This document shows, piece after piece, positions 15,465-61,857 of a DNA stretch of 64,000 bases (position 1 is its first letter; every line of letters starts with the position of its first letter). The notes under the pieces were generated by a model that saw only the letters and a list, made by a program, of their open reading frames with translations, ran no database searches and was not told where the DNA came from. Made by a program: the position numbers and the translations under genes. The stretch covers positions 13,511 through 77,510 of the forward strand of contig JABUEW010000002.1 in NCBI GenBank assembly GCA_013314855.1. Direction: 5' to 3'. Source of the stretch: Bacillota bacterium (lineage in GTDB: Bacteria > Bacillota > Clostridia > Acetivibrionales > DUMC01).

Positions 15465-15493
15465 CAGGTTAATATTCTACATAAGCCATCTCA

Positions 15494-47225: not shown

Positions 47226-47496
47226 AGGATTCCTCCTATCTCAATAAATTATCCGGTTACACTTTTTCTGATATTGTTAATATAATGATAACATAACAAA
47301 TCAAAGTATGTAAACTTTAGGCTATTAACTTTTATTACCATATTTTATTTTATATAATTTTAAAAGAAGGTTGCCTTCTCTAAATAAGTTGAATAACACT
47401 ATCAAAGTTGTTATAATTTTTATAGGTAAATATTAAATAATTTCGATTATCTGGTAAGCAAACAATGTCATTTTAAGAAAAGGAGATGTGTTGCAA

Positions 47497-47871
47497 ATGG
47501 AAATGAATGTTGGTGCAAAAGTGTGGTTTGTGCCCGATTGTTATTACCCTTCAACAAGCACTGGAAATCTTAAGAGTCATGAAGCTATATGCGTGCTGAA
47601 CCCCGGAAAAAAGGATGCCAATATCGAAATAACCTTATACTTTGAAGACAGGGATTGTATGCGGGGTTTTAAAGCTGTTTGCAAGGCTGAAAGAACAAAT
47701 CATATCAGGATGGATAAGTTAAAGAACGAAAATGGTGAAGGTGTACCCATGGATGTACCTTACGCAATGATGGTAATGAGTGATGTGGAAATAATTGCCC
47801 AGTATAGCAGAATGGATACCTCCCAGGCAGAGATGGCTTTAATGACAACAATGGCTTTCCCGTTCAAGTAA
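47497..47871 (+). CDS. ASRT-family protein (sensory rhodopsin transducer fold, PF07100-like)
   Basis: The pattern SHEAICVLNPGKKDANIEITLYFED...AERTNHIRMDKL...YSRMDTSQAEMALMTTMAF parallels the Anabaena ASRT / Thermotoga TM1070 family (recalled from memory). AGGAG 11 nt upstream. Confidence 0.6.
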   Translation: MEMNVGAKVWFVPDCYYPSTSTGNLKSHEAICVLNPGKKDANIEITLYFEDRDCMRGFKAVCKAERTNHIRMDKLKNENGEGVPMDVPYAMMVMSDVEIIAQYSRMDTSQAEMALMTTMAFPFK

Positions 47872-48263: not shown

Positions 48264-49103
48264 TTATAAAAGCGGCATTTCAGTCATGCGGAGGTTTGTG
48301 CAGCCGTAAGGGATAAGCCGGAGTTCTTCTTCTTCATTGGAAACCCGATCCATTCCAGGGTAGGGGGCAGCACAACCGTTTTTCTTGTCCCAATCTACCT
48401 TTTTACCACGAACATGGGCTACTACCGGGGCTCCCCCGGGAGAAAAGGGACAGTCTCCTATAGGAAGTTCCTCAAACCGGATGCCGGATTCTGGATTATT
48501 TTTATCAAGACACAGGCCATAATTCCACGGTGTAGCAGGATATATTTCGTAATCACAGTGAGGAGGCTCGCGGCCTGGGATATCCCGGTTAATTCTTACC
48601 CAGCGTTCCGCAATGGGAAGCGAGTATACCAGAGGACCCCGGGTTACGGCATAGAGATTATTGGGCCGGCTTACAATACGGGGATGCATTGGGAAGTGAA
48701 GAGTAAAGGAGGTTTCCCCACTCCATACTTGCTCAAGACGGTAATAATCTCCATTCTTCAAGGAAATTGAGCGCCCCCCGATTTTTAGACAGGCACCTTC
48801 AGCCCATCCAGGCACTCTCAGCCATAGTGCAAATCCAGTCTCACGGTCAACCGTTACCTTAAAATCCAGGGATTCGCGGAAAGGGTACCCGGTATCTAGG
48901 GTTATAGAAACCTTTGCATTGTTTACTGAAGTTTTTACTGTACAGGGTGCGTAGATTGGAACAGCCAGTCCGTCCTGGCTTTGCATAAAAATAGACATGG
49001 CAAGCTTTGGCCAGGGTTGGCTGAGGTTTGCCGTGCAGCATCCATAATTTGGTTCAAGCCCGAATATGTTTGATTCTCCTCCGTTGGTGCGGTAAAAGCA
49101 CAT
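48264..49103 (-). pseudogene. C-terminal part of a GH127/DUF1680-type (beta-L-arabinofuranosidase-like) gene
   Basis: The frame opens mid-domain at ...LEPNYGCCTANLSQPWPKL (CC motif of the GH127 Cys/Zn site), followed by beta-sandwich-like C-terminal domains. The N-terminal catalytic part is missing. Confidence 0.55.
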
Positions 49104-49330
49104 TTCTTAAATTTTGCAGCCATTTAATCAGTCCCACCGTTGGTACTATAACCTTCAAAGACAAAAGTATTACCGAATACAGCCCTACGGAATTGAGGAA
49201 AAGGATAGTATATTGTTTCCAAACACCTTATCTTTTTGGTGATACAGTAATAGAAAACATCAACTTCCCTTTTTCTATAAGAAATGTAAAACCTGATACC
49301 GAAAAGATAAATGAACTGTTTTCAATGTTT
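49085..49330 (+). pseudogene. ABC-transporter ATPase fragment starting inside Walker A
   Basis: ...CGKSTFLKFCSHLISPTVGTITFKDKSITEYSPTELRKRIVYCFQTPYLFGDTVIENINFPF... The N-terminus, signature and Walker B are absent. It abuts the GH127 fragment on the opposite strand. Confidence 0.55.
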
Positions 49331-49450
49331 CATAGGTATGTTGTTTTCTGTAAAGTAGAGGATTATTTTATCAAAGTTGTTTACATCCCTTGAACTACTT
49401 ACCTTTACAATATTCTCATCAATCTCTACACTTGAAACACCATCTATTTT
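49330..49450 (-). pseudogene. Possible C-terminal fragment of an ABC-2-type ATPase
   Basis: The minus-strand frame reads KIDGVSSVEIDENIVKVSSSRDVNNFDKIILYFTENNIP, a pattern typical of the C-terminal domain of drug-type ABC ATPases. Confidence 0.35.
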
Positions 49451-49673: not shown

Positions 49674-51575
49674 CTACATGAATGAATAGAAAGTCGTTAT
49701 AGATATCCGGCTGGGAGATGGCATCCTGTTATAAACATTACACTGAACCAAGCCTTCCACCCCATTAAAGTAAAGCCTTTCATGCTCCAGTTCCTCTATC
49801 CGGTCTATCTTACCCTGCAGATAGTCGTTAATTCTCGCTATGGCAGTATCAAGCCTCATAAGCAGTGCACCATACCTGAGATCAAGTATCTCCCATCCAG
49901 ATGGTTTGTTGATCATCATCCATAAACTTCTGTGATATTCTCTTAAGTTCTTCACCCTTTTTATCAGTTCAGGTAGCTCTTTTTGGGCTAACTCCTCAAG
50001 TACCACGTTATTTTTATTTCTGTAGGCATTTGTTATCCTTATCCCCATTTCAGCCTTTAGTTCCAATACTAGACTTACTCTTCTCAAATACTCAAAAACA
50101 AAATTTAAATCCCCATTCCTTCCAGCATACACGCTTAGCTTTTTCGCTAAATCATTGTAATGACTGCTTAAGGGTAACCCCTCAATATTCTTGTCAAATA
50201 GGCCAAGGAGAACATCCTGCCACATAAGGTATTTACTCGTGTTCCTGTTATTAGTGTTGCCATTTTGGGTTCCAGGTACCTCGTCAATGTATTTAACGCT
50301 TATGAAGTCATCATAGTCTGTCCCCGTACAGAATTTGAACCTTTTCTTCAATTTCTCTTCATCCAGCACTTTGGAATACCCATGTTCGGCAAAAAGCTGT
50401 AACCCTACCATGTTGGTATATATATTGCACTCGGTAGTATCATCGCCCCATATTGTTGCAAATACCTCTTTTATTCCCTGCTTCTTGCAAGCGTTGAGTG
50501 CAGCATTTGTGTTAGCATAGGTTATACCATAATTAAGTGTGAAACCTGTCCAGCTCCATAGACCTCCTGCGAATATTGGATCAGACCCAAACTCCCTGTG
50601 CCTCTTTATCCACTCGTTGTAAAAATCCTCATCCGAGTGGTAGTAATCCCAGTAAACAAGCTGAACCCCTTTTGGTACCATGTCAATCACTTCTTTTGGT
50701 ATAACAGAGTTTATGTCATAATAGTCCCCTGTTCTGGATGCTGCTCTGAAATACATGTCGCTCCATATCATCGGCTTCAACCCGTATTTTTCTGTTATCT
50801 TAAGCACATACGTAAGATGTTCGTTCATTATGTCAAATTTATTGCGATAGCCGTTTAACTTGAGGTAGTTTCCCTGTCCAAGTTTCCATGCTTCATCCAT
50901 GCCTATATGGATCCTTTTTGTCCTAAAAGGTTCGCATGCTGCAGCTATCATTTTTTCAATAAACTCGTAAGTCTTTTCATAACCTACCAAGAGTGTATCG
51001 TCATCTTCTTTAATATCGTTGTAACATCCCCACTTTAAAACATCTATCAAATGTGCAAGTGTCTGTATGCACGGTATTACCTCAATTCCGAAAGCATAAG
51101 CATAGTCGTCTATCTCTTTCATCTCTTCATAGCTGTATTTTGATCTCATATATCCAAAATATGGTTGATCCTTTATCTCATAACTGTCTTCAGAGTACAG
51201 CATAAGCATATTCAGGCCCATGGCTGCCATATATCTGATTATCTTTTTTACATTATCAATATTTATTACGGCATTACCCTGTGATACATCGAACATAACA
51301 CCATTCATAGTAAACTGAGGCTCTTCCTGTATCTCAAAAGTATCTGCTTCCTGGAAGGCTTCTATCAACAGTCCAAGAGCTCTGAAAAAATAAATTCTTT
51401 CTTTATACTTAATAACTGCAGACTTTCCCTTTTTTACAACACTTATAAGATTATTCTGAACCTTTTCTACATTAATCTCAAGACCTTCCGGGCATACTTC
51501 AAAACCAAACATGCCGGAAAATATTTCAATCCCTTTATTAAGACCAGAAATATCTCCTTTAAATGAAAGCTTCAT
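49674..51575 (-). CDS. GH20 beta-N-acetylhexosaminidase (cytoplasmic)
   Basis: RIHIGMDEAWKLG (GH20 H-x-G-x-D-E catalytic pair) and a TIM-barrel core. No signal peptide. Confidence 0.75.
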   Translation of the reverse strand: MKLSFKGDISGLNKGIEIFSGMFGFEVCPEGLEINVEKVQNNLISVVKKGKSAVIKYKERIYFFRALGLLIEAFQEADTFEIQEEPQFTMNGVMFDVSQGNAVINIDNVKKIIRYMAAMGLNMLMLYSEDSYEIKDQPYFGYMRSKYSYEEMKEIDDYAYAFGIEVIPCIQTLAHLIDVLKWGCYNDIKEDDDTLLVGYEKTYEFIEKMIAAACEPFRTKRIHIGMDEAWKLGQGNYLKLNGYRNKFDIMNEHLTYVLKITEKYGLKPMIWSDMYFRAASRTGDYYDINSVIPKEVIDMVPKGVQLVYWDYYHSDEDFYNEWIKRHREFGSDPIFAGGLWSWTGFTLNYGITYANTNAALNACKKQGIKEVFATIWGDDTTECNIYTNMVGLQLFAEHGYSKVLDEEKLKKRFKFCTGTDYDDFISVKYIDEVPGTQNGNTNNRNTSKYLMWQDVLLGLFDKNIEGLPLSSHYNDLAKKLSVYAGRNGDLNFVFEYLRRVSLVLELKAEMGIRITNAYRNKNNVVLEELAQKELPELIKRVKNLREYHRSLWMMINKPSGWEILDLRYGALLMRLDTAIARINDYLQGKIDRIEELEHERLYFNGVEGLVQCNVYNRMPSPSRISITTFYSFM

Positions 51576-51660
51576 TATAATCCCCCTAACTATTAATCCT
51601 GTATTAAAATTAATATTAGCATTAAAATAATAACCAAAGTACAGCAGCTGAACAATTGAA

Positions 51661-52020
51661 CTAATATTTCCCGAATTCCCGCCCAGCCTCTACCATTGCA
51701 ATCATATTTTCTTCCGGAGTCATCCTGGGAATCATTTCTCCACTGTTGAATATATATCCACCATTCCTGCCACCAGCTTCAATAATTCTTTTCGCCTCTT
51801 CCTTAACTTTTTCCGGAGTGCCATTCATCAGTACATTAATAGGGTCAATATTCCCTATCAAACATACTTTGTCTCCAACAGCCTGCTTTACGTCAGCTAT
51901 ATCAACGCCTGGTCCCACACTTAATGCACTGATACCTGTTTGAGCTTGGACTTTAATATGTTCAATTTTGTGCTCACTTGCATGGTAAAAGCTGTAGCCT
52001 CTACACCCTTATAAGCCATA
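51661..52020 (-). pseudogene. Uroporphyrinogen-decarboxylase (URO-D/MtaA-like) family remnant
   Basis: The C-terminal third reads ...FYHASEHKIEHIKVQAQTGISALSVGPGVDIADVKQAVGDKVCLIGNIDP...GGYIFNSGEMIP... An intact GGAGG + ATG (52018-52020) lies just upstream but in another frame. Confidence 0.55.
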
Positions 52021-52688
52021 ATAACCCCTCCAAACCTAAATTTAGTACAACCATTATTAAACCAGGTACACCAAAATCCTAAAATTATATGTCATGGCCT
52101 TTCTTGTATGCACAGGTCTACAACTTGGAAACCCTGGGCGGATTATTCATCAAATCCTCAGGCATTATTTGAGCAGTTTTTTTCTCATCACCCGGTTTTC
52201 GCTTTCTTGTATACGGATATAACTCACATTTCTTATATTAGAACTTTAGTTAAAACTTTAGCTTCCATAGAGCTTTTAAGACTACCTGCTTATTTAACCT
52301 TTCTAGTTCGTGCTATAAACCAACGCTTATTAATTACTTAAATTTAATATTTTATTTGTTGCATAAAATAATAAGATAATTATATTATATTTGTTATACT
52401 ATTATCTGTCAATGTGATTTTTTTATAGTTATGGTTGTGCAGCAATTTAGATTAACCCAAACTGCAGATGTGCTTTAGAAAATGCTGCAAATCATCAGCT
52501 TATAGACAATCATAGGCTTGTAGCCAGGTTTTATTGAGGAATTTGAGCTGCCACTCTAATTCTTATTTCATCAAGGTCATCACCTGATGCGTTAACTATT
52601 ATTAACATCCTCTGGTAATTATATAGTCCATGGAAAGGGGAGATATTGCATAAGTAAAACAAAAGTCTTTTAGTTGAATAATTCTTCT

Positions 52689-53564
52689 TTACTCCTTTAC
52701 ACTGCCGCTTAAAATGCCCGCTATAAAATATTTCTGCAAGCATATAAATAGAACGTATATTATAAAGCTGGACACAACTGTTGCAGCCATGAGCTGGTTC
52801 CATATAATCTCTGCTTCATCCCTGAACATTGTAAGAGCTATTTGAACAGTTTTCATGCTGTCAGAGTTGGTCATTATAAGTGGCCATGTATATTCATTCC
52901 ATGTTCCTGTAAATTTTAGTATACCCAGCGATGCCAGGATTGGTTTAGAAAGAGGCAGATATATTCTAACAAACGTCATAAACCTGCTGCACCCATCAAT
53001 CCTGGCCGAATTATCAATATCTTGAGGAAAAGTTATATAAAACTGCCGGCAAAGAAAAACACCGAAAGAGCCGGCAATAAACGGTATTATAAGCCCGGCG
53101 TATGTGTTTATTAATCCCCTTCCGCCTATACCTAATATATTGTTCCCGCCTGCAAGGGGAAATCTTTTCATCATAATAAAAAGCGGGACCATTGTAACCT
53201 GGGGTGGAATCATCATACCTATGAGCAGCAGCACAAATAATAAATGTCTGCCCTTAAATTTGATGCGGGCAAAAACATATCCTGTCATGGAATTGATGAA
53301 AAGGCTTATAATAACTACAATTATAGTAATATATATACTGTTAAAGAAGTATCTGCCCCAAGAACCATTTGTCATTGCTTTAATATAGTTAATGAATTGG
53401 GGTTTTTGGGGAAATAACAACAACTCCGGCGAATATATCTCTTTCATTGTCTGAAGAGATGCCGAAATCATAATAAAAAACGGTATTCCTATGATAATGG
53501 TAAACAGCAATACCACAAGCCAGGTTAACAATTTATATATGGTGTCTTTCATTTCTGTTGTCAA
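52689..53564 (-). CDS. Carbohydrate ABC transporter permease (MalG-like)
   Basis: EAA-like DNSARIDGCSRFMTFVRIYLP. Six TM segments. Confidence 0.85.
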   Translation of the reverse strand: MTTEMKDTIYKLLTWLVVLLFTIIIGIPFFIMISASLQTMKEIYSPELLLFPQKPQFINYIKAMTNGSWGRYFFNSIYITIIVVIISLFINSMTGYVFARIKFKGRHLLFVLLLIGMMIPPQVTMVPLFIMMKRFPLAGGNNILGIGGRGLINTYAGLIIPFIAGSFGVFLCRQFYITFPQDIDNSARIDGCSRFMTFVRIYLPLSKPILASLGILKFTGTWNEYTWPLIMTNSDSMKTVQIALTMFRDEAEIIWNQLMAATVVSSFIIYVLFICLQKYFIAGILSGSVKE

Positions 53565-54448
53565 TCCTCCTGCTCTTTTCCTTCTCCAATGCGCATATTT
53601 AAAAGGGTAATTCCAAAAATAATTACCAAAAGTACTATGGACATTGCCGATGCATACCCCATTTTATACTCGCTAAAAGCGCGCATATATATTTGATGAA
53701 CAATTGTCGTAGTGCTGTTGATTGGCCCCCCGCCAGTCATAATCCGTACCTGTTCAAAGGTTTTAAAGGATTCGATACAAGTTGTAACAAATATAAAAAA
53801 GGAAATTGGTGATACCATGGGTACGGTAATTTTGAATAGCATTGCAAATTGCGAAGCACCGTCAACTTTGCCTGCTTCATATAAGCTTGCAGGAATATTT
53901 GCAAGCCCTGCCAGGTAAATTATCATCACATATCCTATATTTTTCCAGATATTCATAATAATAAGGCATGGTAATGCCAGGTGTTCATCAAATAACCACT
54001 TTAAAGGTTGAAATCCTAAAGCTATAAGTATTTTGTTAAATATTCCCGTTGTAGGTTCGTACATATAAAGCCATACCATGGACACTGCAACCATGGAGGT
54101 CACATAAGGAAATATATAAAGCGCTCTTACCATATAAAATACTTTTGACATCCCGTTAACTGCAACTGCGGCAATAAAGCCAAAAACCATGAGAGGCACT
54201 ACACTAAATGCTGCGTAAATTAAAGTATTCCATATGGAACGGAGAAAGTCCTTATCACTGAATAATTTAATATAGTTATTCAAGCCAACAAAATCCCTTG
54301 TTTTTCCAAGGTCGTAGTTTGTAAAACTATTTATAAAATTAGTAACTATAGGCACCAATACAAAAAGGATAAAAAAGGCAAAAAAGGGTGTTATCATGGC
54401 ATATGCTTCTATATCATCGCTTCTGATTTTGATCTTTTTTTTGGTCAT
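53561..54448 (-). CDS. Carbohydrate ABC transporter permease (MalF-like)
   Basis: YEAGKVDGASQFAMLFKITVPM EAA loop. The start is probably MTKKKIKI (54448) rather than the ORF-track 54517. Confidence 0.8.
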   Translation of the reverse strand: MTKKKIKIRSDDIEAYAMITPFFAFFILFVLVPIVTNFINSFTNYDLGKTRDFVGLNNYIKLFSDKDFLRSIWNTLIYAAFSVVPLMVFGFIAAVAVNGMSKVFYMVRALYIFPYVTSMVAVSMVWLYMYEPTTGIFNKILIALGFQPLKWLFDEHLALPCLIIMNIWKNIGYVMIIYLAGLANIPASLYEAGKVDGASQFAMLFKITVPMVSPISFFIFVTTCIESFKTFEQVRIMTGGGPINSTTTIVHQIYMRAFSEYKMGYASAMSIVLLVIIFGITLLNMRIGEGKEQED

Positions 54449-54546
54449 ATGTGCATACCTGCACTTTAGTCCGGTGTAATTCCATGTTATGCCAAGTTTT
54501 CTTGATACACCCTTCATTGCCCTCTCCTTTTACTGTTTCATTTCTT

Positions 54547-54601
54547 TATATCTTATCATCTCTGCTTATATCTTATCATCTCTTTATGTCTTATCATTTT
54601 T
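54547..54601. repeat. Three tandem copies of an 18-20-nt unit at the SBP/permease junction
   Basis: tatatcttatcatctct (54547), tatatcttatcatctct (54567) and tatgtcttatcattttt (54585). The third copy overlaps the SBP stop codon (54594). Confidence 0.75.
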
Positions 54602-55865
54602 TTATATCTTCCAGTAATTTGTTTTGTGCTTCATTTAAAGCCTCTTCAATTGATACCTTTGAATAAAGCACTTTTTGTACCATTTCATTCCTCAAGGTCT
54701 GGAACCTGGGAGACCAGGTAGTCCTGGGCATGCCTATACCAACCTCAACACATTCGGCCCTTACCGAATTGTATGGATCCAGCTTTGCGAATTCGTCAAC
54801 AAGGGATTTCCTCGTAACAGGTATATTTAGCCTTTTACTGCGTTCAAGCACCTGTTCCTTCGTTAAAGCCATTTCAATGAATTTCCATGCCTCATCTCTA
54901 TTTTTACATCCGGAGCCCATAAAGAGCATGTTACACCCACAGAATGATGCCTTCTTTTTGTTATACGGCGGTACAGCGATAGCCACTTTCTCTTTCAAAT
55001 CGGCATCTTCCAGCATAGGCCGCAAAGCAACGTTATTTATCAGTGTCATGGCAGCATTTCCTTTAATAAAAGGATTTACTTCATTGCTGTTGTACGGGAT
55101 ATTTACTTCGTCAATAAAGCTCTTCAAAAACTCGAAAGCTTCTGCTTTTTCAGGTGTATTAATTATAGGCATGCCATCGTCATCAACATATTTACCGCCG
55201 TTGCCGAAAACAAAAACATCGAATTCAACAAAATTTCCTGCTGCCATTGGAAATGCAAAACCTGCCCGAGTTATCCTGTCACCTTCCTTTACAGTCAGAA
55301 GCCTGGCATAATCTCTTAGCTCATCCCATGTTCTTGGTGGTTTTTCGGGGTCAATGCCGGCTTCTTCAAACATATCCTTGCGATATGCAAAGACAAACGG
55401 TGTGGTAGAATATGCAAGACCATATATTTCGCCCTTATAGGTACCATTGGCAAGTACACTTTCCATTATATCGTCCTTGCCTTCCCATTTTGAATAGTAA
55501 TCCGTAATAGGCTGATAATGACCTGCTTCAACCCTGTTTGCTACAGAAATAATACCATGCCCGATAATATCAGGACCTGCACCTCCTGCAAAAAGTGTGT
55601 TAAGTTTGGTTTCCATGGGTTCACCTATCGCAGCATCATCATATTGGATTTTGATATTTGGGTTCTTTAATTCGAATTCTTTGATAAGAGATTTCCAATA
55701 ATCCGCTTCAGGTGTATCGTTACCTATACGTAAAAAGGTTAATGTTACTATATCTTTATTATAATTATTATCATTTTTGCTTCCACAAGAGGAAAAAAGT
55801 ATTAAATTTGCTAAAACCATCATAATTACTAATGATACTGTTATTATTCTCTTTATTTTCTTCAT
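54594..55865 (-). CDS. CUT1-type sugar ABC transporter substrate-binding lipoprotein
   Basis: Signal peptide with lipobox LFSSCGS. Family-1 SBP size. Confidence 0.85.
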   Translation of the reverse strand: MKKIKRIITVSLVIMMVLANLILFSSCGSKNDNNYNKDIVTLTFLRIGNDTPEADYWKSLIKEFELKNPNIKIQYDDAAIGEPMETKLNTLFAGGAGPDIIGHGIISVANRVEAGHYQPITDYYSKWEGKDDIMESVLANGTYKGEIYGLAYSTTPFVFAYRKDMFEEAGIDPEKPPRTWDELRDYARLLTVKEGDRITRAGFAFPMAAGNFVEFDVFVFGNGGKYVDDDGMPIINTPEKAEAFEFLKSFIDEVNIPYNSNEVNPFIKGNAAMTLINNVALRPMLEDADLKEKVAIAVPPYNKKKASFCGCNMLFMGSGCKNRDEAWKFIEMALTKEQVLERSKRLNIPVTRKSLVDEFAKLDPYNSVRAECVEVGIGMPRTTWSPRFQTLRNEMVQKVLYSKVSIEEALNEAQNKLLEDIKK

Positions 55866-55949: not shown

Positions 55950-57047
55950 TTACCACACAACAGACGGATGGCCGTGGATGTTAGGCAACCTGTTGGGCCG
56001 TACTAGTGCGCCGCCTTCTTCATAAGAAGTTATTGCAGCAAATGTATATTCCAGTGTTGCCAAAGCATCCCTGCCTGATGCCCTTATAAATTCCTTTGGC
56101 ACCCCGTTCGTAATATCTTCAAGGAATGCATGGAGCCTTGTGGGGAAGGTTGAGTTAAAATCGGTAATTCCCGTATTGAAAACTTCAGGAGCCGGCGCTT
56201 CCTTCTCCCCAGGCTTTGGCGATGCCCAGAAGGTAAGTTTTTCAACACAGTTTTCAATACAAAAAGTGCCTTTTGTACCTGCCATTTCAAAGCTCCACCA
56301 GCCTCCCAGGCCAAACATCGCATCACCGCGCTGGGACAGTAAATATCCTACACTTCCGTTTTCAAAGCGGACATGTATGCTGTTGATAGAAAGCATCAGG
56401 TCATCTGCGCTTTTCCTTACACCGGGTTTATTCATAAATGCCTGTACATGCGTAATATCTCCGCAAAAATAGCGCATAACACTAAAAGGATGGGCAAGAA
56501 ACGCCTTTACATGGGAATACGGGCGCTGCCACCTTGGGCTTCCTACTCCTCCATAAGTTGCCTCCCCGCCGTTAAAGCCCATTTTATGAAGGCAATATAC
56601 CGGCTCACCAACTTTTCCCTCTTTTATATATTGTTTCGCTTTATCTGCCGGCTGGGTGAAATAGTGGTTTAAATTACATCCAAGGTAAACATCCTTTTCT
56701 GCCGCAAAGCGTACCATTTCCCTTGCTTCACTAATATCATTGGATATGGGTTTTTCTACCAGGACATGCTTTCCTGCATCAATAGCTTCCATAACAGGAA
56801 CATAGTGCCAGCTGCCATTTTCATAACCGCTGGTGGTAACATCAATAATATCTAACTCAGGATGGGCTTTCAGCATTTCCTTCAAGCTGTAGTATGCCTT
56901 AACCCCATGCCTTTCAGCAGCAGCATCTGCCTTTTCTTTTATAATATCGCATACTGCCGTAAGCTCTGCGAGAGGGTCTTTGTTATAACACTCAGCATGG
57001 AGATTTCCTATGCCGCCCATTCCTACTATACCTATTTTTAGAGCCAT
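55950..57047 (-). CDS. Gfo/Idh/MocA-family oxidoreductase (365 aa)
   Basis: IGIVGMGGIGNLHA Rossmann motif and VLVEKP motif. Paralogous to 58077-59087. Confidence 0.85.
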   Translation of the reverse strand: MALKIGIVGMGGIGNLHAECYNKDPLAELTAVCDIIKEKADAAAERHGVKAYYSLKEMLKAHPELDIIDVTTSGYENGSWHYVPVMEAIDAGKHVLVEKPISNDISEAREMVRFAAEKDVYLGCNLNHYFTQPADKAKQYIKEGKVGEPVYCLHKMGFNGGEATYGGVGSPRWQRPYSHVKAFLAHPFSVMRYFCGDITHVQAFMNKPGVRKSADDLMLSINSIHVRFENGSVGYLLSQRGDAMFGLGGWWSFEMAGTKGTFCIENCVEKLTFWASPKPGEKEAPAPEVFNTGITDFNSTFPTRLHAFLEDITNGVPKEFIRASGRDALATLEYTFAAITSYEEGGALVRPNRLPNIHGHPSVVW

Positions 57048-57129: not shown

Positions 57130-57996
57130 TTAATTTTCTTCATTTTTACGAAATACTGTAGGTGAAACACCCACAACTTGCTTAAATTGCCGTGAAAAAT
57201 TGCTTATATCACCAAATCCTGCACTCCTTGCAATCTCCGCAACAGGCATATTTGTTGTTTTAAGTTTTTCCATGGCCTTTGCAATTCTGTAATTACGCAA
57301 GTATTCAACAGGAGATAAACCCACTGCATTTTTAAATTGACGCGATATATAGTCAGGTGATAATTTGACCATGCTTGCCATTTCTTTCATTAAGAAATCC
57401 CGCTGGTAGTTCTCCTCCATAAACTTTAAAGCGTTATAAATATGAGGCAAGTACACTTTGTTATTTACATTTGTACCGGAATAATGGTTGCTGTATAGTC
57501 TTGAGTACAATACCAAAAAACTTACCAAAAGGCTTTTCATATTAAGTTCCCATCCAATACCGCGGTTAACCTGTTCCCACTTCATTTTTTCAAGGCAAAG
57601 TAAAACTTCACGCCTTTCAGCAAAATCCAAATGAAGTTTTTCCCATTTAGACTGCCGTTCGCCCAGTATCTGGCTCATACCGGGTAGTTTAACGATTTCT
57701 GAAGAAAATCCGTCTAAAGCCTCCATATAAAACAGGCAATTGTATAAATAGGTATGATGGGCGCTTATATATGCATGTACTTCACCGGGCCTTATGGTAA
57801 ATAAATCGCCGGATGTAAGGATGGTTGTTTCATCATTGCATGAATGCATGGAAAAACCTTTGTCAATATAAACTATTTCAAAGAAGGAATGGCTGTGCAA
57901 CCATACCTTGCCATGATGTTCCGTATCCATAATTGCAATAGGAAAGTCTCTATCTTCAAAATCCAGGATGTTTTCTTCTTTTCCCAAAACAGCCAT
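57130..57996 (-). CDS. AraC-family regulator (cupin sensor + 2x HTH)
   Basis: N-terminal cupin-like HSHSFFEIVYI..G. C-terminal LSPDYISRQFK...GVSPTVFR HTH_18 pattern. Embedded between the two oxidoreductase genes. Confidence 0.85.
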   Translation of the reverse strand: MAVLGKEENILDFEDRDFPIAIMDTEHHGKVWLHSHSFFEIVYIDKGFSMHSCNDETTILTSGDLFTIRPGEVHAYISAHHTYLYNCLFYMEALDGFSSEIVKLPGMSQILGERQSKWEKLHLDFAERREVLLCLEKMKWEQVNRGIGWELNMKSLLVSFLVLYSRLYSNHYSGTNVNNKVYLPHIYNALKFMEENYQRDFLMKEMASMVKLSPDYISRQFKNAVGLSPVEYLRNYRIAKAMEKLKTTNMPVAEIARSAGFGDISNFSRQFKQVVGVSPTVFRKNEEN

Positions 57997-58076: not shown

Positions 58077-59087
58077 CTATCTCTTAACAGTTTCTACCTT
58101 AATGGGTAGCCCTGTTTTAATAGATTCTATAGCTGCATGAATTACACGGCTTGCCTCAAGGCCATGTTCACCGGAGCCATCAATATCTTCAGGCCTATCG
58201 CCCCTTGCCACTTGGTTTACAAAGCAGGTAATCCTATCGCGAAATGTATCATAGAAGTCACGGAATCCTCCAAATACAGGATTGGTGTAAACCTGCTTTA
58301 CAAGGCTGTCAGCAGGATAAAGGACAGCCTCCCTCCACATATCCTCAAGTACTGCACGCCCTTTTGTACCTGCAACCTCGCAACGTTCCATCGGGTGTCC
58401 CCGCTTTATGTCATATGAGCTTGTCAAATGGCCAACAGCTCCATTCTTAAATTTAACGTTTATAGAAGCGGTTGACCAGATATCCCTGCCCGGTGCCTTG
58501 GTTGCAAAGCAGTGGACGGTATCAACATCACCGCCAAAATAGCGCATGATATCCACACTATGTGGGTTAAGGGCTTTGAGGTGATAATATTCGGAGTCAA
58601 AAGAGGGATCAAACCTTCCTATCCATAATGCCATATTTATAAACAGCAGGTGCCCCAAATGCCCTTCATCCTGCCACTGTTTTACAATGCGCGCTGCAGG
58701 AGTAAACCGATGGTTTAAGTTGATGGCAAAGCACCTGTTTAACCTTTTTGCCGTATCCACCATTATTTGTGCCTTTTCAAGGTCATTGCAAATAGGCTTT
58801 TCACATAATACGTGGCAACCTGCTTCAAGAGCCTGTATTGTGGGCAGATAATGATCACTTGAATATTCGAATCCTCCTGTAGTGACACTGCAGATATCCG
58901 GTTTTAATTCATTAAGCATTTTTTCCGCATCCGGATACCAGGGAACACCAAACTTTTTGCCGGCAGCTTCCGCCCTCTCCCGGATGATATCACAGACACC
59001 TACGAGTTCAACGTCTTTACACTCTGTATAAACACTTGCGTGGGTGTTTCCTATGTTACCCATTCCGATAACACATACTCTTAGCAT
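58077..59087 (-). CDS. Gfo/Idh/MocA-family oxidoreductase (336 aa)
   Basis: VCVIGMGNIGNTHA Rossmann motif and VLCEKP motif. Confidence 0.85.
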   Translation of the reverse strand: MLRVCVIGMGNIGNTHASVYTECKDVELVGVCDIIRERAEAAGKKFGVPWYPDAEKMLNELKPDICSVTTGGFEYSSDHYLPTIQALEAGCHVLCEKPICNDLEKAQIMVDTAKRLNRCFAINLNHRFTPAARIVKQWQDEGHLGHLLFINMALWIGRFDPSFDSEYYHLKALNPHSVDIMRYFGGDVDTVHCFATKAPGRDIWSTASINVKFKNGAVGHLTSSYDIKRGHPMERCEVAGTKGRAVLEDMWREAVLYPADSLVKQVYTNPVFGGFRDFYDTFRDRITCFVNQVARGDRPEDIDGSGEHGLEASRVIHAAIESIKTGLPIKVETVKR

Positions 59088-59195: not shown

Positions 59196-60590
59196 CTAAT
59201 CCTTTTTCTGGGCAAGCATAGCCTGAAGTTTTTTTGCAGCCTCAGGGTCGCCTATGTGAAGAGCATCATATGCCTGCTGTGATGTCTTAAAAGGCCCGCA
59301 CCCTTTTCCATGCCAATCAAGATTGTTATACATGGGATTTTCCCTTCCGGTTTCCTTTTCACGTTTTGCTATATGTTGAAACATACGTTCCTCAAGCATC
59401 TTTACAACTCCAGGTTCTTTTTCAGCAACATTATTATTTTCTTCCGGGTCCTTAATTAAATTATAAAGCTCTACTTCAGGCTTGAAGTGGAAATCCGGCT
59501 CCAAGGCACGGATAAGTTTCCATTCGGGAGTTCTCCAACCATGCTTTCTCATCCATGTACATTCGGTGATATAGAATTCCGGTTCCGGCTCCCTATACTC
59601 ACCCCTTGTTAAAGGCATAAGACTTCTTCCATCGAAACGAATACCGGTATCAATTCCCAGGATCTCCAAAATTGTAGGCATAATATCCTTAAGCTGGCAA
59701 TAATCCGTATACCTCTTCCCTTCAGGAAGTTTTCCCGGGAAACGCAGCACCAAGGGGACAGTCAACGTACAATCATAAAGTCCGTGATGATCAAAGTAAC
59801 AGTCATGGTCATAGAGAGTTTCCCCATGGTCGGATGTAATAACAACCAGGGTTTCGCCTTCAATGCCCAAAGCTTCCAGTTTGGTTAGGATATTCTGTAT
59901 GCAGGCATCCATATAAGCAATTGCACCATCGTACTGGGCAATTATATAATCCTTATCGGTGCATCCCGGTGGGAACCAGGTCAAGAAATAGTCCCTGAAA
60001 GGCTTAAACTGATATACAGGTTCAAGGGATTTATTATTTGGGTCAAACTCATTTCCGCCATAGAATATTCTGTGAAATGGTTCTGGAGGAAGATATGGAG
60101 AATGAGGGTCCATGTGGCGCATAAAAAGGAAGAACGGTTTGTCTTCCTTTGCAAGGCGTTCCAATTCGGGAATAGCTACCTTGTTGAGATTTTCAGCTTT
60201 TGGTGAGCGTCCCTTTTCCCAGGAACCCCAGGCCTCATATTCAATATACTTGCCAAAGCCACGGGATGCAGGATTACCGCCAAATCCAATACATGTGGAA
60301 TTGTACCCGTTTTCATTAAGTACCTCTGCCAGAGTTTTTATTCCATCTGCAATTCCGCCTTTATGTCTTAAAGCTACAATATTTGTTCCGAAGCAATCCA
60401 TACCGGTAAGCATAGAGCCATAACCTGATGTAGTAGGTACACTAGGGCTAAAACAGTGCTCAAACACTATACCTCCCTGGGCATATTTATCTATATGGGG
60501 TGTAGTAAGGTGCTCATAGCCGTAAAGGCTCATATGGTCAGACCTTAGGCTGTCAATTCCGAATAACACTAAATTAGGTTTTTTAGCCAT
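59196..60590 (-). CDS. Alkaline-phosphatase-superfamily 'sulfatase-like' enzyme lacking the C/S-x-P-x-R formylglycine motif
   Basis: Sulfatase-fold motifs PNLVLFGIDSLRSDH, HMDPHSPY and ITSDHGE. At the nucleophile site the sequence is FSPSVPTTSGYGSMLTG instead of C/S-x-P-S-R-xxx-LTG. No signal peptide. Start at MAKKPN (60590) after AAAGGAG. Confidence 0.75.
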   Translation of the reverse strand: MAKKPNLVLFGIDSLRSDHMSLYGYEHLTTPHIDKYAQGGIVFEHCFSPSVPTTSGYGSMLTGMDCFGTNIVALRHKGGIADGIKTLAEVLNENGYNSTCIGFGGNPASRGFGKYIEYEAWGSWEKGRSPKAENLNKVAIPELERLAKEDKPFFLFMRHMDPHSPYLPPEPFHRIFYGGNEFDPNNKSLEPVYQFKPFRDYFLTWFPPGCTDKDYIIAQYDGAIAYMDACIQNILTKLEALGIEGETLVVITSDHGETLYDHDCYFDHHGLYDCTLTVPLVLRFPGKLPEGKRYTDYCQLKDIMPTILEILGIDTGIRFDGRSLMPLTRGEYREPEPEFYITECTWMRKHGWRTPEWKLIRALEPDFHFKPEVELYNLIKDPEENNNVAEKEPGVVKMLEERMFQHIAKREKETGRENPMYNNLDWHGKGCGPFKTSQQAYDALHIGDPEAAKKLQAMLAQKKD

Positions 60591-60609
60591 ACTTATATCT
60601 CCTTTCATT

Positions 60610-61407
60610 TTATCTTGCTCCAAGTATTTTAAGACATGCATTCATATACCCATAACTTTCAGCCGCAATAATGGATGCAGCAATCATGTCCTGTCCAGGG
60701 CCGATAACTTCCAGGCAAACAGGCCCATCATATCCGGCATCCACCATTGCTTTAAAATAACCAAACAGGTTTATATCACCTCTGCCGCATGCTTGCAATG
60801 CAGGTTCACCCGGACTGGGACCCCGGCCTTTACAATCACGGATATGTATATGCTTTACCCTGCTTATTACTTGGGGCAGTGCTTCTTCCGGAAACTCTCC
60901 CGCACGGTAAATGTGACTTGGGTCCATGTCAATACCAAAAGCAGGACTTTTTATATAACCCATAGCTTTAAGCGTTGTAGGAGTATTATATATTGCTGCA
61001 CCTACATGGGCTTTTACGCAAAGAGTAACACCGAATTCTTCAGCTTTTTCAGACATTTTTGCAATGGTGTCAAGGCTTGCTTTAAGACTCTCTTCATCGT
61101 CAGCTTTTCCTCCCGGCCCGATGTTAATAACCGGGATACCTATTTCCTTGGCTGCTTCAAATGCCTTCATAAGCCTGTCTTCGTCAAGGGAGGCTACCTC
61201 GGATGACAACATCATGAGTCCGAATTCTTCCATAACTGCCTTAATATCTTCCTTTTGTGCTTTCCAATTATCAAGGTTTAAATGCTCGCACATACCTTTA
61301 ATAGCAGAAATCTCCAGACCATCATAACCTGCTGCTTTGATCGCTTTTGCCGCCTCTTTAAGAGAATACGCTTTGAAAAGTACAGTATTTACTCCAAGTT
61401 TTATCAT
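60610..61407 (-). CDS. Xylose-isomerase-like TIM-barrel protein (sugar phosphate isomerase/epimerase family)
   Basis: AP_endonuc_2-type pattern: MIKLGVNTVLF, GYDGLEIS, VKHIHIRD and VCLEV. Confidence 0.8.
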   Translation of the reverse strand: MIKLGVNTVLFKAYSLKEAAKAIKAAGYDGLEISAIKGMCEHLNLDNWKAQKEDIKAVMEEFGLMMLSSEVASLDEDRLMKAFEAAKEIGIPVINIGPGGKADDEESLKASLDTIAKMSEKAEEFGVTLCVKAHVGAAIYNTPTTLKAMGYIKSPAFGIDMDPSHIYRAGEFPEEALPQVISRVKHIHIRDCKGRGPSPGEPALQACGRGDINLFGYFKAMVDAGYDGPVCLEVIGPGQDMIAASIIAAESYGYMNACLKILGAR

Positions 61408-61857
61408 CGTTCTCACCCTTTTGGGCATTCACTCCTTTCAAATTAAATTATTTATAATCCTTTCTTTATCCTTCCTTTTTTCCCTGAAACATAATGTCTT
61501 TTATTGAAATCCAACAACTGAGAGTATTTTATTAAAGATATTTAAAGAAAGGACAAAATTCAAATTTTTAATTAATATTATGCATCCATTAATAATGCCA
61601 TCTTAATTATACAGCGAATAAAATTACTCTTCAATTAAATTACTTGATTTGTTCTAATATCGTTACGGAATATGCATAATCCATTATGTTTTTGCAAAAT
61701 AATATTGAGAACTTATTATGGACAAAATACAAAGAAAATAGATAGTGATGTTGTCGAGTCTGACCATCCGGTAGTCCGGGAATCGGCAAATTACATTAAG
61801 TAACAAAGCGTTAAAGCTATAAAGTAATATAGCGTAATTAAATTTAGCTTATATGAA

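What the first reader, a model, noticed from the sequence alone, without database searches (positions are those of the whole stretch)
59196..60590. Sulfatase-fold enzyme with the formylglycine site replaced (SVPTT / PTTSGY instead of C/S-x-P-x-R)
The protein keeps the metal-binding and fold motifs of type-I sulfatases: GIDSLRSDH near the N-terminus, DPHSPY and ITSDHGE. At the position of the sulfatase signature it reads F-S-P-S-V-P-T-T-S-G-Y-G-S-M-L-T-G.

Aligned from the conserved LTG without gaps, the nucleophile position is Thr and the essential Pro and Arg are Ser and Tyr. Aligned on the Pro, the sequence is S-V-P-T-T, so Arg becomes Thr, with a 2-residue insertion. Either way the C/S-x-P-x-R motif needed for formylglycine generation is absent. 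No anaerobic sulfatase-maturating radical-SAM gene is present in the window, and the protein has no signal peptide.

In this superfamily, Thr/Ser nucleophiles are typical of phospho-transferases and phosphodiesterases (LtaS, EptA, NPP types). A 'sulfatase' annotation would therefore probably be wrong and the chemistry is open.
Basis: seen in the sequence. Interest (0 to 1): 0.6.

Follow-up and report, generated by a model that had tools for sequence, protein, structure and literature searches.

The report
Threonine-type sulfatase-like enzyme in sugar operon
This gene encodes a cytoplasmic protein with a sulfatase fold that cannot make the formylglycine residue real sulfatases need; it carries a threonine and histidines like phospho-transfer enzymes, and it sits in a four-enzyme sugar module that is conserved across many bacterial phyla and has no known function.

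Summary
The ORF at 59196-60590 (minus strand, 464 aa) is a full-length PF00884 protein with a sulfatase C-terminal subdomain. It has no C/S-x-P/A-x-R motif anywhere. Profile and pairwise alignments put Thr53 at the nucleophile position and Tyr57 where the sulfatase Arg sits. The sulfate-binding Lys residues are replaced by Phe103 and by Asp267/His268.

This is a family trait. All 203 family members examined keep Thr53, and 122 of 127 more distant relatives also have Thr. The SulfAtlas paper already warned that Thr-bearing PF00884 proteins are mis-called sulfatases, so the general phenomenon is known.

Three things are new here:
- The catalytic residues match phosphoethanolamine transferase EptA position for position, on a soluble sulfatase scaffold.
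- The family is 66-89% identical across about ten phyla.
- It is almost always flanked by a TIM-barrel gene and Gfo/Idh/MocA oxidoreductase genes.

In 51 of 82 related loci, canonical Cys-type sulfatases, sulfotransferases or PAPS-synthesis genes lie nearby. The window itself has none.

I conclude it is an active, formylglycine-independent Thr-nucleophile ester transferase or hydrolase acting on a sugar intermediate. Whether the group is sulfate or phosphate is unresolved. No paper or solved structure was found for this family.

The parts
59196..60590 (-). Thr-type sulfatase-like gene (464 aa; two-domain S1-sulfatase fold, no FGly motif)
   Evidence: The AF2 model has pLDDT 82 and pTM 0.88. 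Foldseek top hits are all S1 sulfatases/PMH at 18-22% identity.
60599..60605 (-). Shine-Dalgarno AAAGGAG, 8 nt before the ATG at 60590
   Evidence: It supports the 464-aa start rather than the 481-aa ORF start at 60641.
60534..60560 (-). G-I-D-S-L-R-S-D-H. Asp13 is the first metal ligand. Ser14 replaces the Asp/Gln of sulfatases/PMH.
   Evidence: D13 aligns with the metal-binding Glu of EptA. It is Asp in 198 and Glu in 4 of 203 family sequences.
60402..60452 (-). Nucleophile segment F-S-P-S-V-P-T53-T-S-G-Y57-G-S-M-L-T-G (Thr53 codon at 60432-60434)
   Evidence: T53 lies opposite fGly/Ser of 4uph/3ed4 and opposite the nucleophile Thr of EptA. T53 is invariant in 203/203 sequences and Y57 in 202/203. 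The segment sits at the N-terminus of helix 55-62 in the model.
60093..60116 (-). H-M-D161-P-H163-S-P-Y, the conserved His loop (equivalent to G-S-H-G-P in EptA and P-H-x-P in sulfatases)
   Evidence: D161 and H163 are invariant in the family. In the wider Thr clade, H163 is His in 131 of 133 sequences.
59781..59834 (-). S-D254-H255-G-E-T-L-Y-D-H262-D-C264-Y-F-D267-H268-H269-G: metal ligands plus a His-rich loop where sulfatases carry the essential Lys
   Evidence: D254/H255 align with the D/H of S-D-H-G-E in EptA, and H269-G270 with H-G of Y-L-H-G. The Lys of the Cys-type paralogues (D-K-H) aligns with D267/H268. All these residues are invariant in 203 sequences. The loop 261-266 has low pLDDT.
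60610..61428 (-). Xylose-isomerase-like TIM-barrel gene (PF01261), immediately upstream; part of the conserved module
   Evidence: It is adjacent to the Thr enzyme in most of the 82 related loci. Median identity across phyla is 65%.
58077..59087 (-). Gfo/Idh/MocA oxidoreductase 'GFO_A', immediately downstream; part of the conserved module
   Evidence: Median identity is 63%.
57130..57996 (-). AraC-family regulator inside the operon
   Evidence: An AraC gene recurs in many related loci.
55950..57047 (-). Second Gfo/Idh/MocA oxidoreductase 'GFO_B'
   Evidence: Either GFO_B or another GFO paralogue is present in nearly all loci.
52689..55865 (-). CUT1 ABC importer: SBP_bac_1 binding protein (54594-55865) and two permeases (53561-54517, 52689-53564)
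   Evidence: It is syntenic with the closest relative L005 and with L007, L036 and L067.

Best explanation
The gene encodes an active, cytoplasmic, formylglycine-independent metallo-enzyme of the alkaline-phosphatase superfamily. It has the two-domain scaffold of S1 sulfatases. Its catalytic core is that of the Thr-nucleophile transferases (EptA/MCR-1/LtaS, also NPP-like).

Proposed mechanism (inferred):
- A divalent metal is held by Asp13, Thr53, Asp254 and His255. It activates Thr53 and binds a monoanionic ester, either a sulfate monoester or a phosphate (di)ester, of a sugar-derived intermediate.
- Thr53 attacks S or P and forms a covalent Thr-O-ester.
- His163 and His268/His269 stand where sulfatases have His and the essential Lys. 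They either bind a second metal or protonate the leaving group.
- Water or an acceptor hydroxyl then resolves the intermediate.

The enzyme is one step of a conserved cytoplasmic module made of a Gfo/Idh/MocA dehydrogenase, a TIM-barrel isomerase/lyase, the Thr enzyme and a second Gfo/Idh/MocA enzyme. In this window the module is fed by a CUT1 ABC importer and controlled by an AraC regulator.

What is shown: the fold, the absence of the FGly motif, Thr at the nucleophile column, the residue-for-residue match to EptA, invariance of these residues, and the synteny.

What is inferred: covalent catalysis, metal content, and the identity of the substrate.

My split for the group handled is about 45% sulfate ester (from gene context), about 35% phosphate ester (from chemical precedent) and about 20% something else, such as a mutase or a non-hydrolytic role.
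For: Fold and domain:
- PF00884 matches end to end and SGSH_C also matches.
- The AF2 model resembles only S1 sulfatases/PMH.

Catalytic residues:
- T53 lies opposite fGly/Ser and Y57 opposite Arg.
- No C/S-x-P/A-x-R is present, and the signature-2 Lys is Phe103.
- hhalign of the family profile against E. coli EptA gives probability 95.9% and E 5e-9. It pairs D13 with the metal Glu, T53 with the nucleophile Thr, H163 with the His of GSHGP, D254/H255 with D/H of SDHGE, and H269-G with H-G.
- D13, T53, H163, D254, H255, E257, H262, H268 and H269 are invariant or nearly so in 203 family sequences. Most of them are also conserved in 175 distant domains. This argues for a working active site.

Distribution and synteny:
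- Relatives occur in at least 597 species genomes at 66-89% identity, across Clostridia, Bacillales, Planctomycetota, Verrucomicrobiota, Kiritimatiellia, Lentisphaerota, Armatimonadota, Spirochaetia, Chloroflexota and Deinococcota.
- TIM-Thr enzyme-GFO_A synteny is nearly universal. Module proteins are 63-69% identical across phyla.

Sulfur context in the 82 related loci:
- Sulfotransfer_3 in 25 loci, often directly downstream.
- APS kinase or a CysN-APS-kinase fusion in 20.
- CysD in 4 and Sat in 3.
- Cys-type C-x-P-x-R sulfatase in 23.
- At least one of these in 51/82 loci, and in 37/49 loci of 18 kb or more.
Against: - No biochemical data exist for this family. I found no paper and no solved structure closer than about 22% identity.
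- A Ser/Thr nucleophile is a poor solution for sulfate esters. From established enzymology, the sulfo-Ser intermediate of Cys-to-Ser sulfatase mutants is a dead end, and no Thr-based sulfatase is known.
- No kinase, phosphatase or phosphate-transport gene is conserved in the neighbourhood, which weakens the phosphate version.
- The window itself and its closest relative L005 lack every sulfur-related accessory gene.
- The binding protein resembles neutral-sugar binders.
- I could not inspect the model coordinates, so the second-metal site rests on sequence alignment only.
- Some of the PAPS-gene adjacency may be inherited by descent, for example in the three Bacillaceae loci with Sat-transporter-APS kinase. 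It may also simply reflect a neighbouring sulfate-assimilation operon.
Confidence: 0.7

Rival explanations
1. It is a dedicated phosphoesterase or phosphotransferase. It would be a phosphodiesterase, phosphomonoesterase or phosphomutase acting on a phosphorylated sugar or on a nucleotide such as PAP/PAPS/APS. It would use a phospho-Thr intermediate and probably two metals, as in EptA, LtaS, NPP or phosphopentomutase.
For: - The Thr nucleophile and all EptA catalytic positions are matched.
- The wider clade carries an NPP-like T-x-P-S-H-x-S-L-x-T-G motif.
- The cationic sulfate-binding residues of sulfatases are missing: Arg is Tyr57, Lys is Phe103, and Lys is Asp267/His268.
- PF01663 and several EptA/MCR/LtaS NCBIfam models give partial hits around the D-H-G-E segment.
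- Every characterised Ser/Thr member of the superfamily does phosphoryl transfer (established knowledge).
- PAP, PAPS and APS are phosphate esters, so the PAPS-gene context could be read this way.
Against: - No kinase or phosphate-related gene is conserved near the module. ROK and metallophosphoesterase each appear in only 2 of the 134 sampled neighbour ORFs, whereas sulfur-ester genes occur in 51 of 82 loci.
- The enzyme is the most conserved member of a sugar module that also exists without any sulfotransferase or PAPS gene, as in this window. A PAP-phosphatase role therefore does not fit the core.
- Import is by an ABC system, which does not phosphorylate its substrate.
Confidence: 0.35
2. 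It is a formylglycine-independent sulfuryl-transfer enzyme, either a Thr-based sulfatase or a ping-pong sulfotransferase. It would act on a sulfated sugar that is either imported or made in the cell by the neighbouring PAPS-dependent sulfotransferase.
For: - The fold is a sulfatase fold with the sulfatase C-terminal subdomain.
- Canonical C-x-P-x-R sulfatases sit in the same operons in 23 loci. In the Clostridia-type operons closest to this one (L036, L067, L027) they lie between GFO_B and the binding-protein gene.
- Sulfotransfer_3 lies directly downstream in many PVC, Armatimonadota and Chloroflexota loci.
- A bona fide APS kinase is present (TIGR00455, 202 bits against a cut-off of 139). 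Sat, CysD, a CysN-APS-kinase fusion, a DASS-type transporter and a CysQ-like phosphatase also occur.
- A sulfate monoester is monoanionic like the phosphodiester substrates of EptA/NPP (established knowledge).
Against: - There is no precedent for this chemistry. Hydrolysis of an alkyl-sulfate enzyme intermediate by attack on sulfur is chemically very hard, which is the accepted reason for formylglycine.
- All three cationic sulfate-binding residues are lost.
- The window's own operon has no sulfur gene.
- Sulfatases are abundant in PVC genomes, so part of the co-occurrence there could be chance.
Confidence: 0.3
3. It is an ordinary formylglycine-dependent sulfatase that was misaligned, or one that uses a Cys/Ser elsewhere in the sequence.
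For: Database names such as 'sulfatase' and 'arylsulfatase A-like enzyme'. The strong PF00884 hit.
Against: - No [CS]-x-[PA]-x-R occurs anywhere in the protein.
- Four independent alignments put Thr at the nucleophile column.
- Thr is invariant in 203 sequences.
- Thr cannot be oxidised to formylglycine (PMC5066984).
Confidence: 0.02
4. It is a catalytically dead ligand-binding or scaffolding subunit of the module (a pseudo-enzyme).
For: Loss of the canonical sulfatase motif. The protein is tightly coupled to the TIM-barrel gene, with a 19-nt gap.
Against: Every position that is catalytic in EptA-type enzymes is invariant across about ten phyla. That pattern is typical of active enzymes, not of pseudo-enzymes.
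Confidence: 0.05

Closest known systems
S1 formylglycine-dependent sulfatases and phosphonate monoester hydrolases (e.g. 4uph Agrobacterium PMH, 3ed4 E. coli arylsulfatase, 9koq Enterococcus faecium Mn-arylsulfatase)
   Same: - Same Pfam domain over its full length, and the same C-terminal subdomain.
- Same overall fold (TM 0.6-0.7).
- Same first metal ligand (Asp), the same D-H-G metal pair as PMH/EfAS, and the same P-H-x-P histidine.
- Soluble.
   Different: - No C/S-x-P/A-x-R motif. The nucleophile is Thr, and Arg is replaced by Tyr.
- The signature-2 Lys is Phe, and the distal Lys is Asp/His.
- Only 18-22% identity.
- Cytoplasmic, with no maturase needed.
Phosphoethanolamine transferases EptA/MCR-1 and lipoteichoic acid synthase LtaS (Thr-nucleophile members of PF00884)
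   Same: All catalytic positions align (hhalign probability 95.9%): the Thr nucleophile at a helix N-terminus, the acidic first ligand, S-D-H-G-E, the G-S-H-G-P/D-P-H-S-P histidine, and a His-Gly 12-15 residues after D-H.
   Different: - Those enzymes have an N-terminal membrane domain and work outside the cytoplasm on lipid donors.
- They lack the sulfatase C-terminal subdomain.
- This protein is soluble and cytoplasmic, and sits in a sugar operon.
- NCBIfam scores are far below every EptA/MCR/LtaS cut-off.
Nucleotide pyrophosphatase/phosphodiesterases (NPP, PF01663) and cytoplasmic mutases of the superfamily (phosphopentomutase, cofactor-independent phosphoglycerate mutase)
   Same: - Thr/Ser nucleophile.
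- The wider Thr clade has the NPP-like T-x-P-[SN]-H-x-S-[IL]-x-T-G motif (the NPP motif is recalled from memory).
- The order of putative ligands, D ... T ... D-x-H ... D-H ... H, is the order of the two-metal sites in these enzymes (recalled).
- The mutases are cytoplasmic sugar enzymes.
   Different: - Only a 40-residue partial PF01663 match.
- Different domain architecture.
- This family reads T-T-P/S-G-Y, not T-x-P-N-H.
- A two-metal site is not demonstrated.
Oxidative glycoside/sugar-processing modules built from Gfo/Idh/MocA dehydrogenases and xylose-isomerase-like TIM barrels (e.g. DgpA with DgpB/C, levoglucosan and 3-keto-glycoside pathways, inositol IolG/IolE/IolI)
   Same: The neighbours are two Gfo/Idh/MocA oxidoreductases and a PF01261 TIM barrel. 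They show weak similarity to DgpA, IolG, levoglucosan dehydrogenase and IolE.
   Different: - No known module of this type contains an alkaline-phosphatase-superfamily enzyme.
- All similarities are far below the family cut-offs.
- The TIM barrel has no solved relative better than E 7.5e-6.

Membership tests
S1 formylglycine-dependent sulfatase (SulfAtlas S1) | PF00884 alkaline-phosphatase-like catalytic domain plus the C-terminal subdomain | tested here: met
   PF00884 at E 4e-45 over 1-301/301, and SGSH_C at E 1e-16. Foldseek top 50 hits are all S1 sulfatases/PMH.
S1 formylglycine-dependent sulfatase (SulfAtlas S1) | C/S-x-P/A-x-R motif giving the formylglycine nucleophile and the essential Arg | tested here: not met
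   The aligned residues are T53-T-S-G-Y57. The motif occurs nowhere in the protein. Thr is invariant in 203 homologues.
S1 formylglycine-dependent sulfatase (SulfAtlas S1) | Sulfate-binding Lys/His of signature 2 (G-Y-x-S-x3-G-K-x-H) and the distal Lys | tested here: not met
   The signature reads G-Y-N-S-T-C-I-G-F103-G-G. The distal Lys of the Cys-type paralogues and of 4uph aligns with D267/H268.
S1 formylglycine-dependent sulfatase (SulfAtlas S1) | Metal ligands: N-terminal Asp and the D-[NH]-G pair | tested here: met
   D13, D254 and H255 are aligned and invariant.
S1 formylglycine-dependent sulfatase (SulfAtlas S1) | Sulfate-ester hydrolysis and formylglycine in the mature protein | not testable with these tools
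   This needs enzyme assays and mass spectrometry.
Phosphoethanolamine transferase / LtaS type (Thr-nucleophile PF00884) | Thr nucleophile with Glu/Asp, Asp and His metal ligands and two further His | tested here: met
   hhalign against E. coli EptA gives probability 95.9% and E 5e-9, and all six positions pair.
Phosphoethanolamine transferase / LtaS type (Thr-nucleophile PF00884) | N-terminal multi-span membrane domain and an extracytoplasmic catalytic domain | tested here: not met
   The protein starts 5 residues before strand beta-1. It has no hydrophobic N-terminal segment.
Phosphoethanolamine transferase / LtaS type (Thr-nucleophile PF00884) | Score above the NCBIfam family cut-offs | tested here: not met
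   The best EptA-type score is 40 bits against cut-offs of 404-1250. LtaS scores 26 bits against 970.
NPP / type I phosphodiesterase (PF01663) | Full-length PF01663 domain with T-x-P-N-H and a two-zinc site | tested here: inconclusive
   PF01663 scores 34 bits, above its cut-off of 23, but covers only residues 221-260. The motif here is T-T-S-G-Y. The putative second-site ligands D161/H163/H268 are conserved, but the geometry was not inspected.
Uncharacterised Thr-type clade inside PF00884 (this family is one tight subfamily of it) | D-[ST]-L-R-x-D-H; T-x-P-x-x nucleophile segment; D-P-H-x-P-Y; S-D-H-G-E-x-L-x-E-H-x-x-Y-F-D-H-x-G | tested here: met
   Among the 150 best 50%-identity representatives, 133 of the 141 aligned domains have Thr at the nucleophile column, and the other motifs recur in most of them.

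The most novel reading that the evidence does not exclude
The family is the first formylglycine-independent, Thr-nucleophile sulfuryl-transfer enzyme of the alkaline-phosphatase superfamily, either a new kind of sulfatase or a ping-pong sulfotransferase. It would be the signature enzyme of a previously unrecognised cytoplasmic pathway for sulfated sugars, consisting of dehydrogenase, TIM barrel, Thr enzyme and reductase. That pathway is spread by horizontal transfer across about ten phyla. In many genomes it is coupled to dedicated PAPS synthesis and a sulfotransferase.
Probability: 0.3. Interest if true: 0.85.

Novelty: new variant of a known kind. Interest (0 to 1): 0.55.

Why it matters
Thousands of genomes label this protein 'sulfatase' or 'arylsulfatase A-like'. 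That label is unsupported, and it inflates sulfatase counts used to infer degradation of sulfated glycans, especially in Planctomycetota, Verrucomicrobiota and Kiritimatiellia.

The family has three properties that make it worth testing:
- It is unusually conserved, at 66-89% identity across phyla.
- It is locked into a four-gene module.
- In most loci it sits next to sulfation or desulfation genes.

It is therefore a tractable entry point to an unknown and widespread sugar pathway.

If it handles sulfate, it would overturn the rule that hydrolytic sulfatases of this fold need formylglycine. If it handles phosphate, it would be the first soluble sulfatase-scaffold enzyme with an EptA-type active site. 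It would also show how the superfamily switches nucleophile and charge preference on one scaffold.

Tried and rejected
Literature searches:
- Five searches found no paper on this family or module (one search failed on syntax). They covered a Thr nucleophile in sulfatases, formylglycine-independent sulfatases, and sulfatase combined with Gfo/Idh/MocA, TIM barrel, sulfotransferase or APS kinase.
- The 'manganese-dependent arylsulfatase' NCBIfam hit led to EfAS (PMC12421950). That is a normal Cys61 C-x-P-x-R enzyme and is not relevant.

Structure searches:
- PDB sequence and fold searches gave only formylglycine sulfatases/PMH at about 20% identity.
- Model coordinates are not exposed, so I could not measure active-site geometry.

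Neighbouring genes:
- The neighbours have no close characterised or solved relative. The best matches are DgpA and IolG-like enzymes at E 1e-14 to 1e-18, and E 7.5e-6 for the TIM barrel.
- The binding protein resembles generic sugar binders and gives no ligand clue.
- The GH20 gene downstream is not part of the conserved operon.
- A Pfam survey of 134 other neighbour ORFs showed no enriched glycoside hydrolase, kinase or phosphatase.
- RhaM and RhaA looked like a rhamnose lead but occur in only 2 and 1 loci.

Other attempts:
- Fetching an mcr-1 plasmid by accession failed. I used E. coli eptA instead.
- Contexts of more distant Thr-clade members (P0128, P0135) were on contigs too short to be useful.

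Considered and rejected:
- A PAP-phosphatase role, because the gene is the core of a module that also exists without sulfotransferase genes.
- A canonical sulfatase.
- A pseudo-enzyme.
Full report
**1. The observation**

The region holds one minus-strand ORF, 59196..60641. The ATG at 60590 is preceded by AAAGGAG at 60599-60605 with an 8-nt spacer.

Every quoted motif is present at the expected codons. Pfam PF00884 matches from the first to the last profile position (E 4e-45), followed by the sulfatase C-terminal subdomain SGSH_C.

The protein contains no [CS]-x-[PA]-x-R at all. The second sulfatase signature reads G-Y-N-S-T-C-I-G-F, with Phe103 where the sulfate-binding Lys should be.

phmmer alignments to solved enzymes place T53-T-S-G-Y57 opposite fGly-S-P-A-R of 4uph and S-S-P-S-R of 3ed4.

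The first beta-strand starts at residue 6 of a confident AlphaFold model (pLDDT 82, pTM 0.88), so there is no signal peptide.

No radical-SAM or FGE protein turned up among the 23 window ORFs I scanned with Pfam. The 573-aa and 474-aa ORFs and most ORFs of 150-330 aa were not scanned. This point is moot anyway, because there is nothing to mature.

**2. It is a family trait, not an accident**

A word-indexed search returned 5,967 relatives. The best 120 are 71-91% identical.

A scan of one genome per species found at least 597 species with a relative. The best 80 are 66-89% identical. They come from Clostridia, Paenibacillus/Bacillus, Planctomycetota, Verrucomicrobiota, Kiritimatiellia, Lentisphaerota, Armatimonadota, Spirochaetia, Chloroflexota, Trueperaceae and Poribacteria.

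In 203 family sequences the following residues are invariant or nearly so: Thr53, Tyr57, Arg75, His76, Asp161, His163, Asp254, His255, Glu257, His262, Cys264, Asp267, His268, His269 and Lys349.

In the exhaustive search of 1.84 billion cluster representatives, the whole family collapses into a single 50%-identity cluster. Behind it lies a very large, more diverse clade: 9,854 representatives at E below 1e-30, many of them 900-1500 aa with two or three such domains. Across the 150 best representatives, 133 of 141 aligned domains have Thr at the nucleophile column. Outside the main family the count is 122 of 127.

The clade-wide conserved positions are D13, R16, D18, T53, P55, D161, H163, P165, Y166, D254, H255, G256, E257, H262 and H268. 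The positions S14, T54, Y57, R75, H76, H159, C264, H269, K349 and H350 are specific to this family and probably line the substrate pocket.

**3. What the active site looks like**

Foldseek finds only formylglycine sulfatases and phosphonate monoester hydrolases, at 18-22% identity and TM about 0.65. No close relative has been solved.

A profile-profile comparison of the family with E. coli EptA is significant (probability 95.9%, E 5e-9, 268 columns). It pairs every catalytic position:
- Asp13 with the metal-binding Glu.
- Thr53 with the nucleophile Thr of G-T-A-T-A.
- His163 with the His of G-S-H-G-P.
- Asp254/His255 with the D/H of S-D-H-G-E.
- His269-Gly with the H-G of Y-L-H-G.

From memory, in MCR-1/EptA structures these residues are Glu246, Thr285, His395, Asp465, His466 and His478. 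The two extra histidines there bind a second zinc or the phosphate.

Canonical Cys-type paralogues found next to this gene in other genomes read P-V-C-x-P-x-R-Q and D-K-H. The Thr family has D267-H268 at the D-K-H position.

The protein is therefore a sulfatase scaffold carrying the catalytic constellation of the Thr-nucleophile transferases. All three cationic sulfate-binding residues of sulfatases (Arg, Lys, Lys) are replaced by Tyr, Phe and Asp/His.

The loop 261-266 (D-H-D-C-Y-F) is the least confident part of the model core. That is common for metal-binding loops modelled without metal.

**4. Gene context**

In the window the gene is the second of an eight-gene minus-strand operon:
- TIM barrel (60610-61428)
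- Thr enzyme
- Gfo/Idh/MocA oxidoreductase GFO_A (58077-59087)
- AraC regulator (57130-57996)
- Gfo/Idh/MocA oxidoreductase GFO_B (55950-57047)
- CUT1 binding protein (54594-55865)
- Two permeases (52689-54517)

This annotation rests. The closest relative, an anaerobic-digester Clostridiaceae MAG at 89% identity, is syntenic over exactly this stretch and no further.

I searched the six-frame ORFs of 82 non-redundant related loci with the window proteins. TIM barrel-Thr enzyme-GFO_A is nearly universal. A second GFO gene is almost always present, and AraC is common (gene calls). Module proteins are very similar across phyla, with median identities of 65% for TIM, 69% for the Thr enzyme and 63% for GFO_A. 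This points to horizontal spread of a strongly constrained unit.

None of the three partners has a characterised close relative. The best matches are IolG, DgpA, levoglucosan dehydrogenase and IolE-like proteins, all far below family cut-offs.

**5. A recurring link to sulfate esters**

I clustered all neighbouring ORFs, annotated them with Pfam and NCBIfam, and then ran HMM searches over the loci. The results are below.

| Neighbouring gene | Loci (of 82) | Note |
|---|---|---|
| Sulfotransfer_3 | 25 | Often directly after the Thr enzyme; PVC, Armatimonadota, Chloroflexota, Trueperaceae |
| APS kinase, alone or fused to CysN | 20 | TIGR00455 at 202 bits against a cut-off of 139 |
| CysD | 4 | |
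| ATP sulfurylase (Sat) | 3 | In two of these loci a DASS-type transporter lies between Sat and APS kinase |
| CysQ-like phosphatase | 2 | |
| Canonical C-x-P-x-R sulfatase | 23 | In the Clostridia-type operons L036, L067 and L027 it lies between GFO_B and the binding-protein gene |
| Second, more distant Thr-type paralogue (I-P-T-E-V-A-H-T) | 24 | In Paenibacillus its ORF overlaps or directly abuts the APS kinase ORF |

In total, 51 of 82 loci carry a sulfotransferase, a PAPS gene or a Cys-type sulfatase. Among loci of at least 18 kb, the figure is 37 of 49.

No kinase, phosphatase or glycoside hydrolase is comparably enriched.

The window itself and its nearest relative belong to the minority with none of these genes.

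**6. Interpretation**

These points are firm:
- The protein is not a formylglycine sulfatase.
- It has an intact, invariant Thr-centred metal site of the EptA/NPP kind.
- It is cytoplasmic.
- It works together with two NAD-type oxidoreductases and a TIM-barrel enzyme on an imported sugar-like compound.

The mechanism I commit to is covalent catalysis by Thr53 on a metal-bound monoanionic ester. His163 and His268/269 would serve as second-metal ligands or as the general acid. Water or an acceptor hydroxyl would then resolve the intermediate.

The nature of the ester is not settled. Chemical precedent says phosphate: every characterised Ser/Thr member of the superfamily transfers phosphoryl groups, and Ser-for-Cys sulfatase mutants stall as sulfo-enzymes. 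Gene context says sulfate. A sulfate monoester also has the same charge as the phosphodiester substrates of EptA/NPP.

I put the odds at roughly 45% sulfate, 35% phosphate and 20% other. 'Other' covers a mutase-type group migration or a role for sulfate as a leaving group.

One caveat on the PAPS-gene adjacency: part of it could reflect shared descent, as in the three Bacillaceae loci, or a neighbouring sulfate-assimilation operon. The three different arrangements in different phyla, together with the directly adjacent sulfotransferase, argue for a real functional link.

**7. Comparison with what is known**

The general point is published. In the SulfAtlas paper, Barbeyron and colleagues note that 30 of 59 PF00884 seed sequences have Thr instead of Cys/Ser. 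They state that Thr cannot give formylglycine and that such proteins must not be called sulfatases (PMC5066984).

Their example, the T-x-N-x-E group, is the LtaS-like one. I found no paper or structure for the soluble two-domain clade described here, or for the four-gene module.

The protein fails the defining tests of S1 sulfatases: the motif, Arg and Lys. It also fails those of EptA/LtaS: the membrane domain, the location and the family scores. It shares the fold of the former and the catalytic residues of the latter. I therefore file it as a new variant of a known kind, namely an uncharacterised subfamily of Thr-nucleophile alkaline-phosphatase-superfamily enzymes. It is not categorically new.

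**8. Verdict**

Interest is moderate at 0.55. The missing motif alone is known and unsurprising to specialists. The extreme conservation, the fixed four-gene module and the sulfation-gene context together make this a well-defined and experimentally tractable unknown.

The most novel reading still allowed is a Thr-based sulfuryl-transfer enzyme in a new sulfo-sugar pathway. It has perhaps a 30% chance of being true and would be of high interest.

Noticed in passing
window 47488-47871 (+): There is an ASRT-family protein (PF07100, Anabaena sensory rhodopsin transducer; E 4e-46) about 5 kb beyond the end of the operon. ASRT homologues also lie close to the Thr-enzyme module in 7 other loci (Planctomycetota, Bacillaceae, Paenibacillus). 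This suggests a link to the same pathway rather than to rhodopsins.
   Followed up: partly
window 48264-49393: This looks like a gene-decay patch. It holds a 279-aa ORF with only the middle domain of a GH127 beta-L-arabinofuranosidase, including the C-C-T motif region, overlapped by a 121-aa plus-strand fragment that looks like a truncated ABC ATPase. Both are probably pseudogene remnants.
   Followed up: no
window 49674-51575 (-): A GH20C-type N-acetyl-beta-D-glucosaminidase (E 9e-118 to PDB 2epk). It lies next to the operon but is not syntenic in the closest relative. A 1.1-kb stretch with no ORF of 90 aa or more (51576-52688) separates it from the permease gene.
   Followed up: partly
related loci L026, L030, L032, L041, L044, L049, L053, L061, L068, L072, L076, L080 (about +2.5 to +6 kb from the Thr enzyme): In Paenibacillus, three consecutive genes follow GFO_A and overlap or nearly abut one another: APS kinase, a second Thr-type sulfatase-like paralogue (I-P-T-E-V-A-H-T, D-H-C-G), and a canonical C-x-P-x-R sulfatase. 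A PhyH-family dioxygenase and an NHL-repeat protein lie nearby. The role of APS kinase in what otherwise looks like a catabolic operon is unexplained.
   Followed up: partly
representative proteins P0137, P0140, P0142, P0153, P0155, P0169, P0171, P0179, P0190, P0211, P0221, P0260: The wider Thr clade contains many giant proteins (900-1550 aa) with two or three tandem Thr-type sulfatase-like domains. Nothing is known about them.
   Followed up: no
related loci L011 (13206-16529), L010, L039: PVC-type loci place an L-rhamnose-mutarotase-like gene (PF05336), CysD and a CysN-APS-kinase fusion right after the module. L015 carries L-rhamnose isomerase RhaA. This is a possible hint at a 6-deoxyhexose substrate, but the genes are too rare (1-2 loci each) to rely on.
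   Followed up: partly
window 30973-32244 (-): A 423-aa ORF with no Pfam family at E 1e-5 or better.
   Followed up: no
window 5951-8038 and 13077-16441 (-): A second carbohydrate-uptake locus: a DUF6259 protein (695 aa) and another CUT1 ABC system. Its permeases are 34-41% identical to those of the operon studied here.
   Followed up: no
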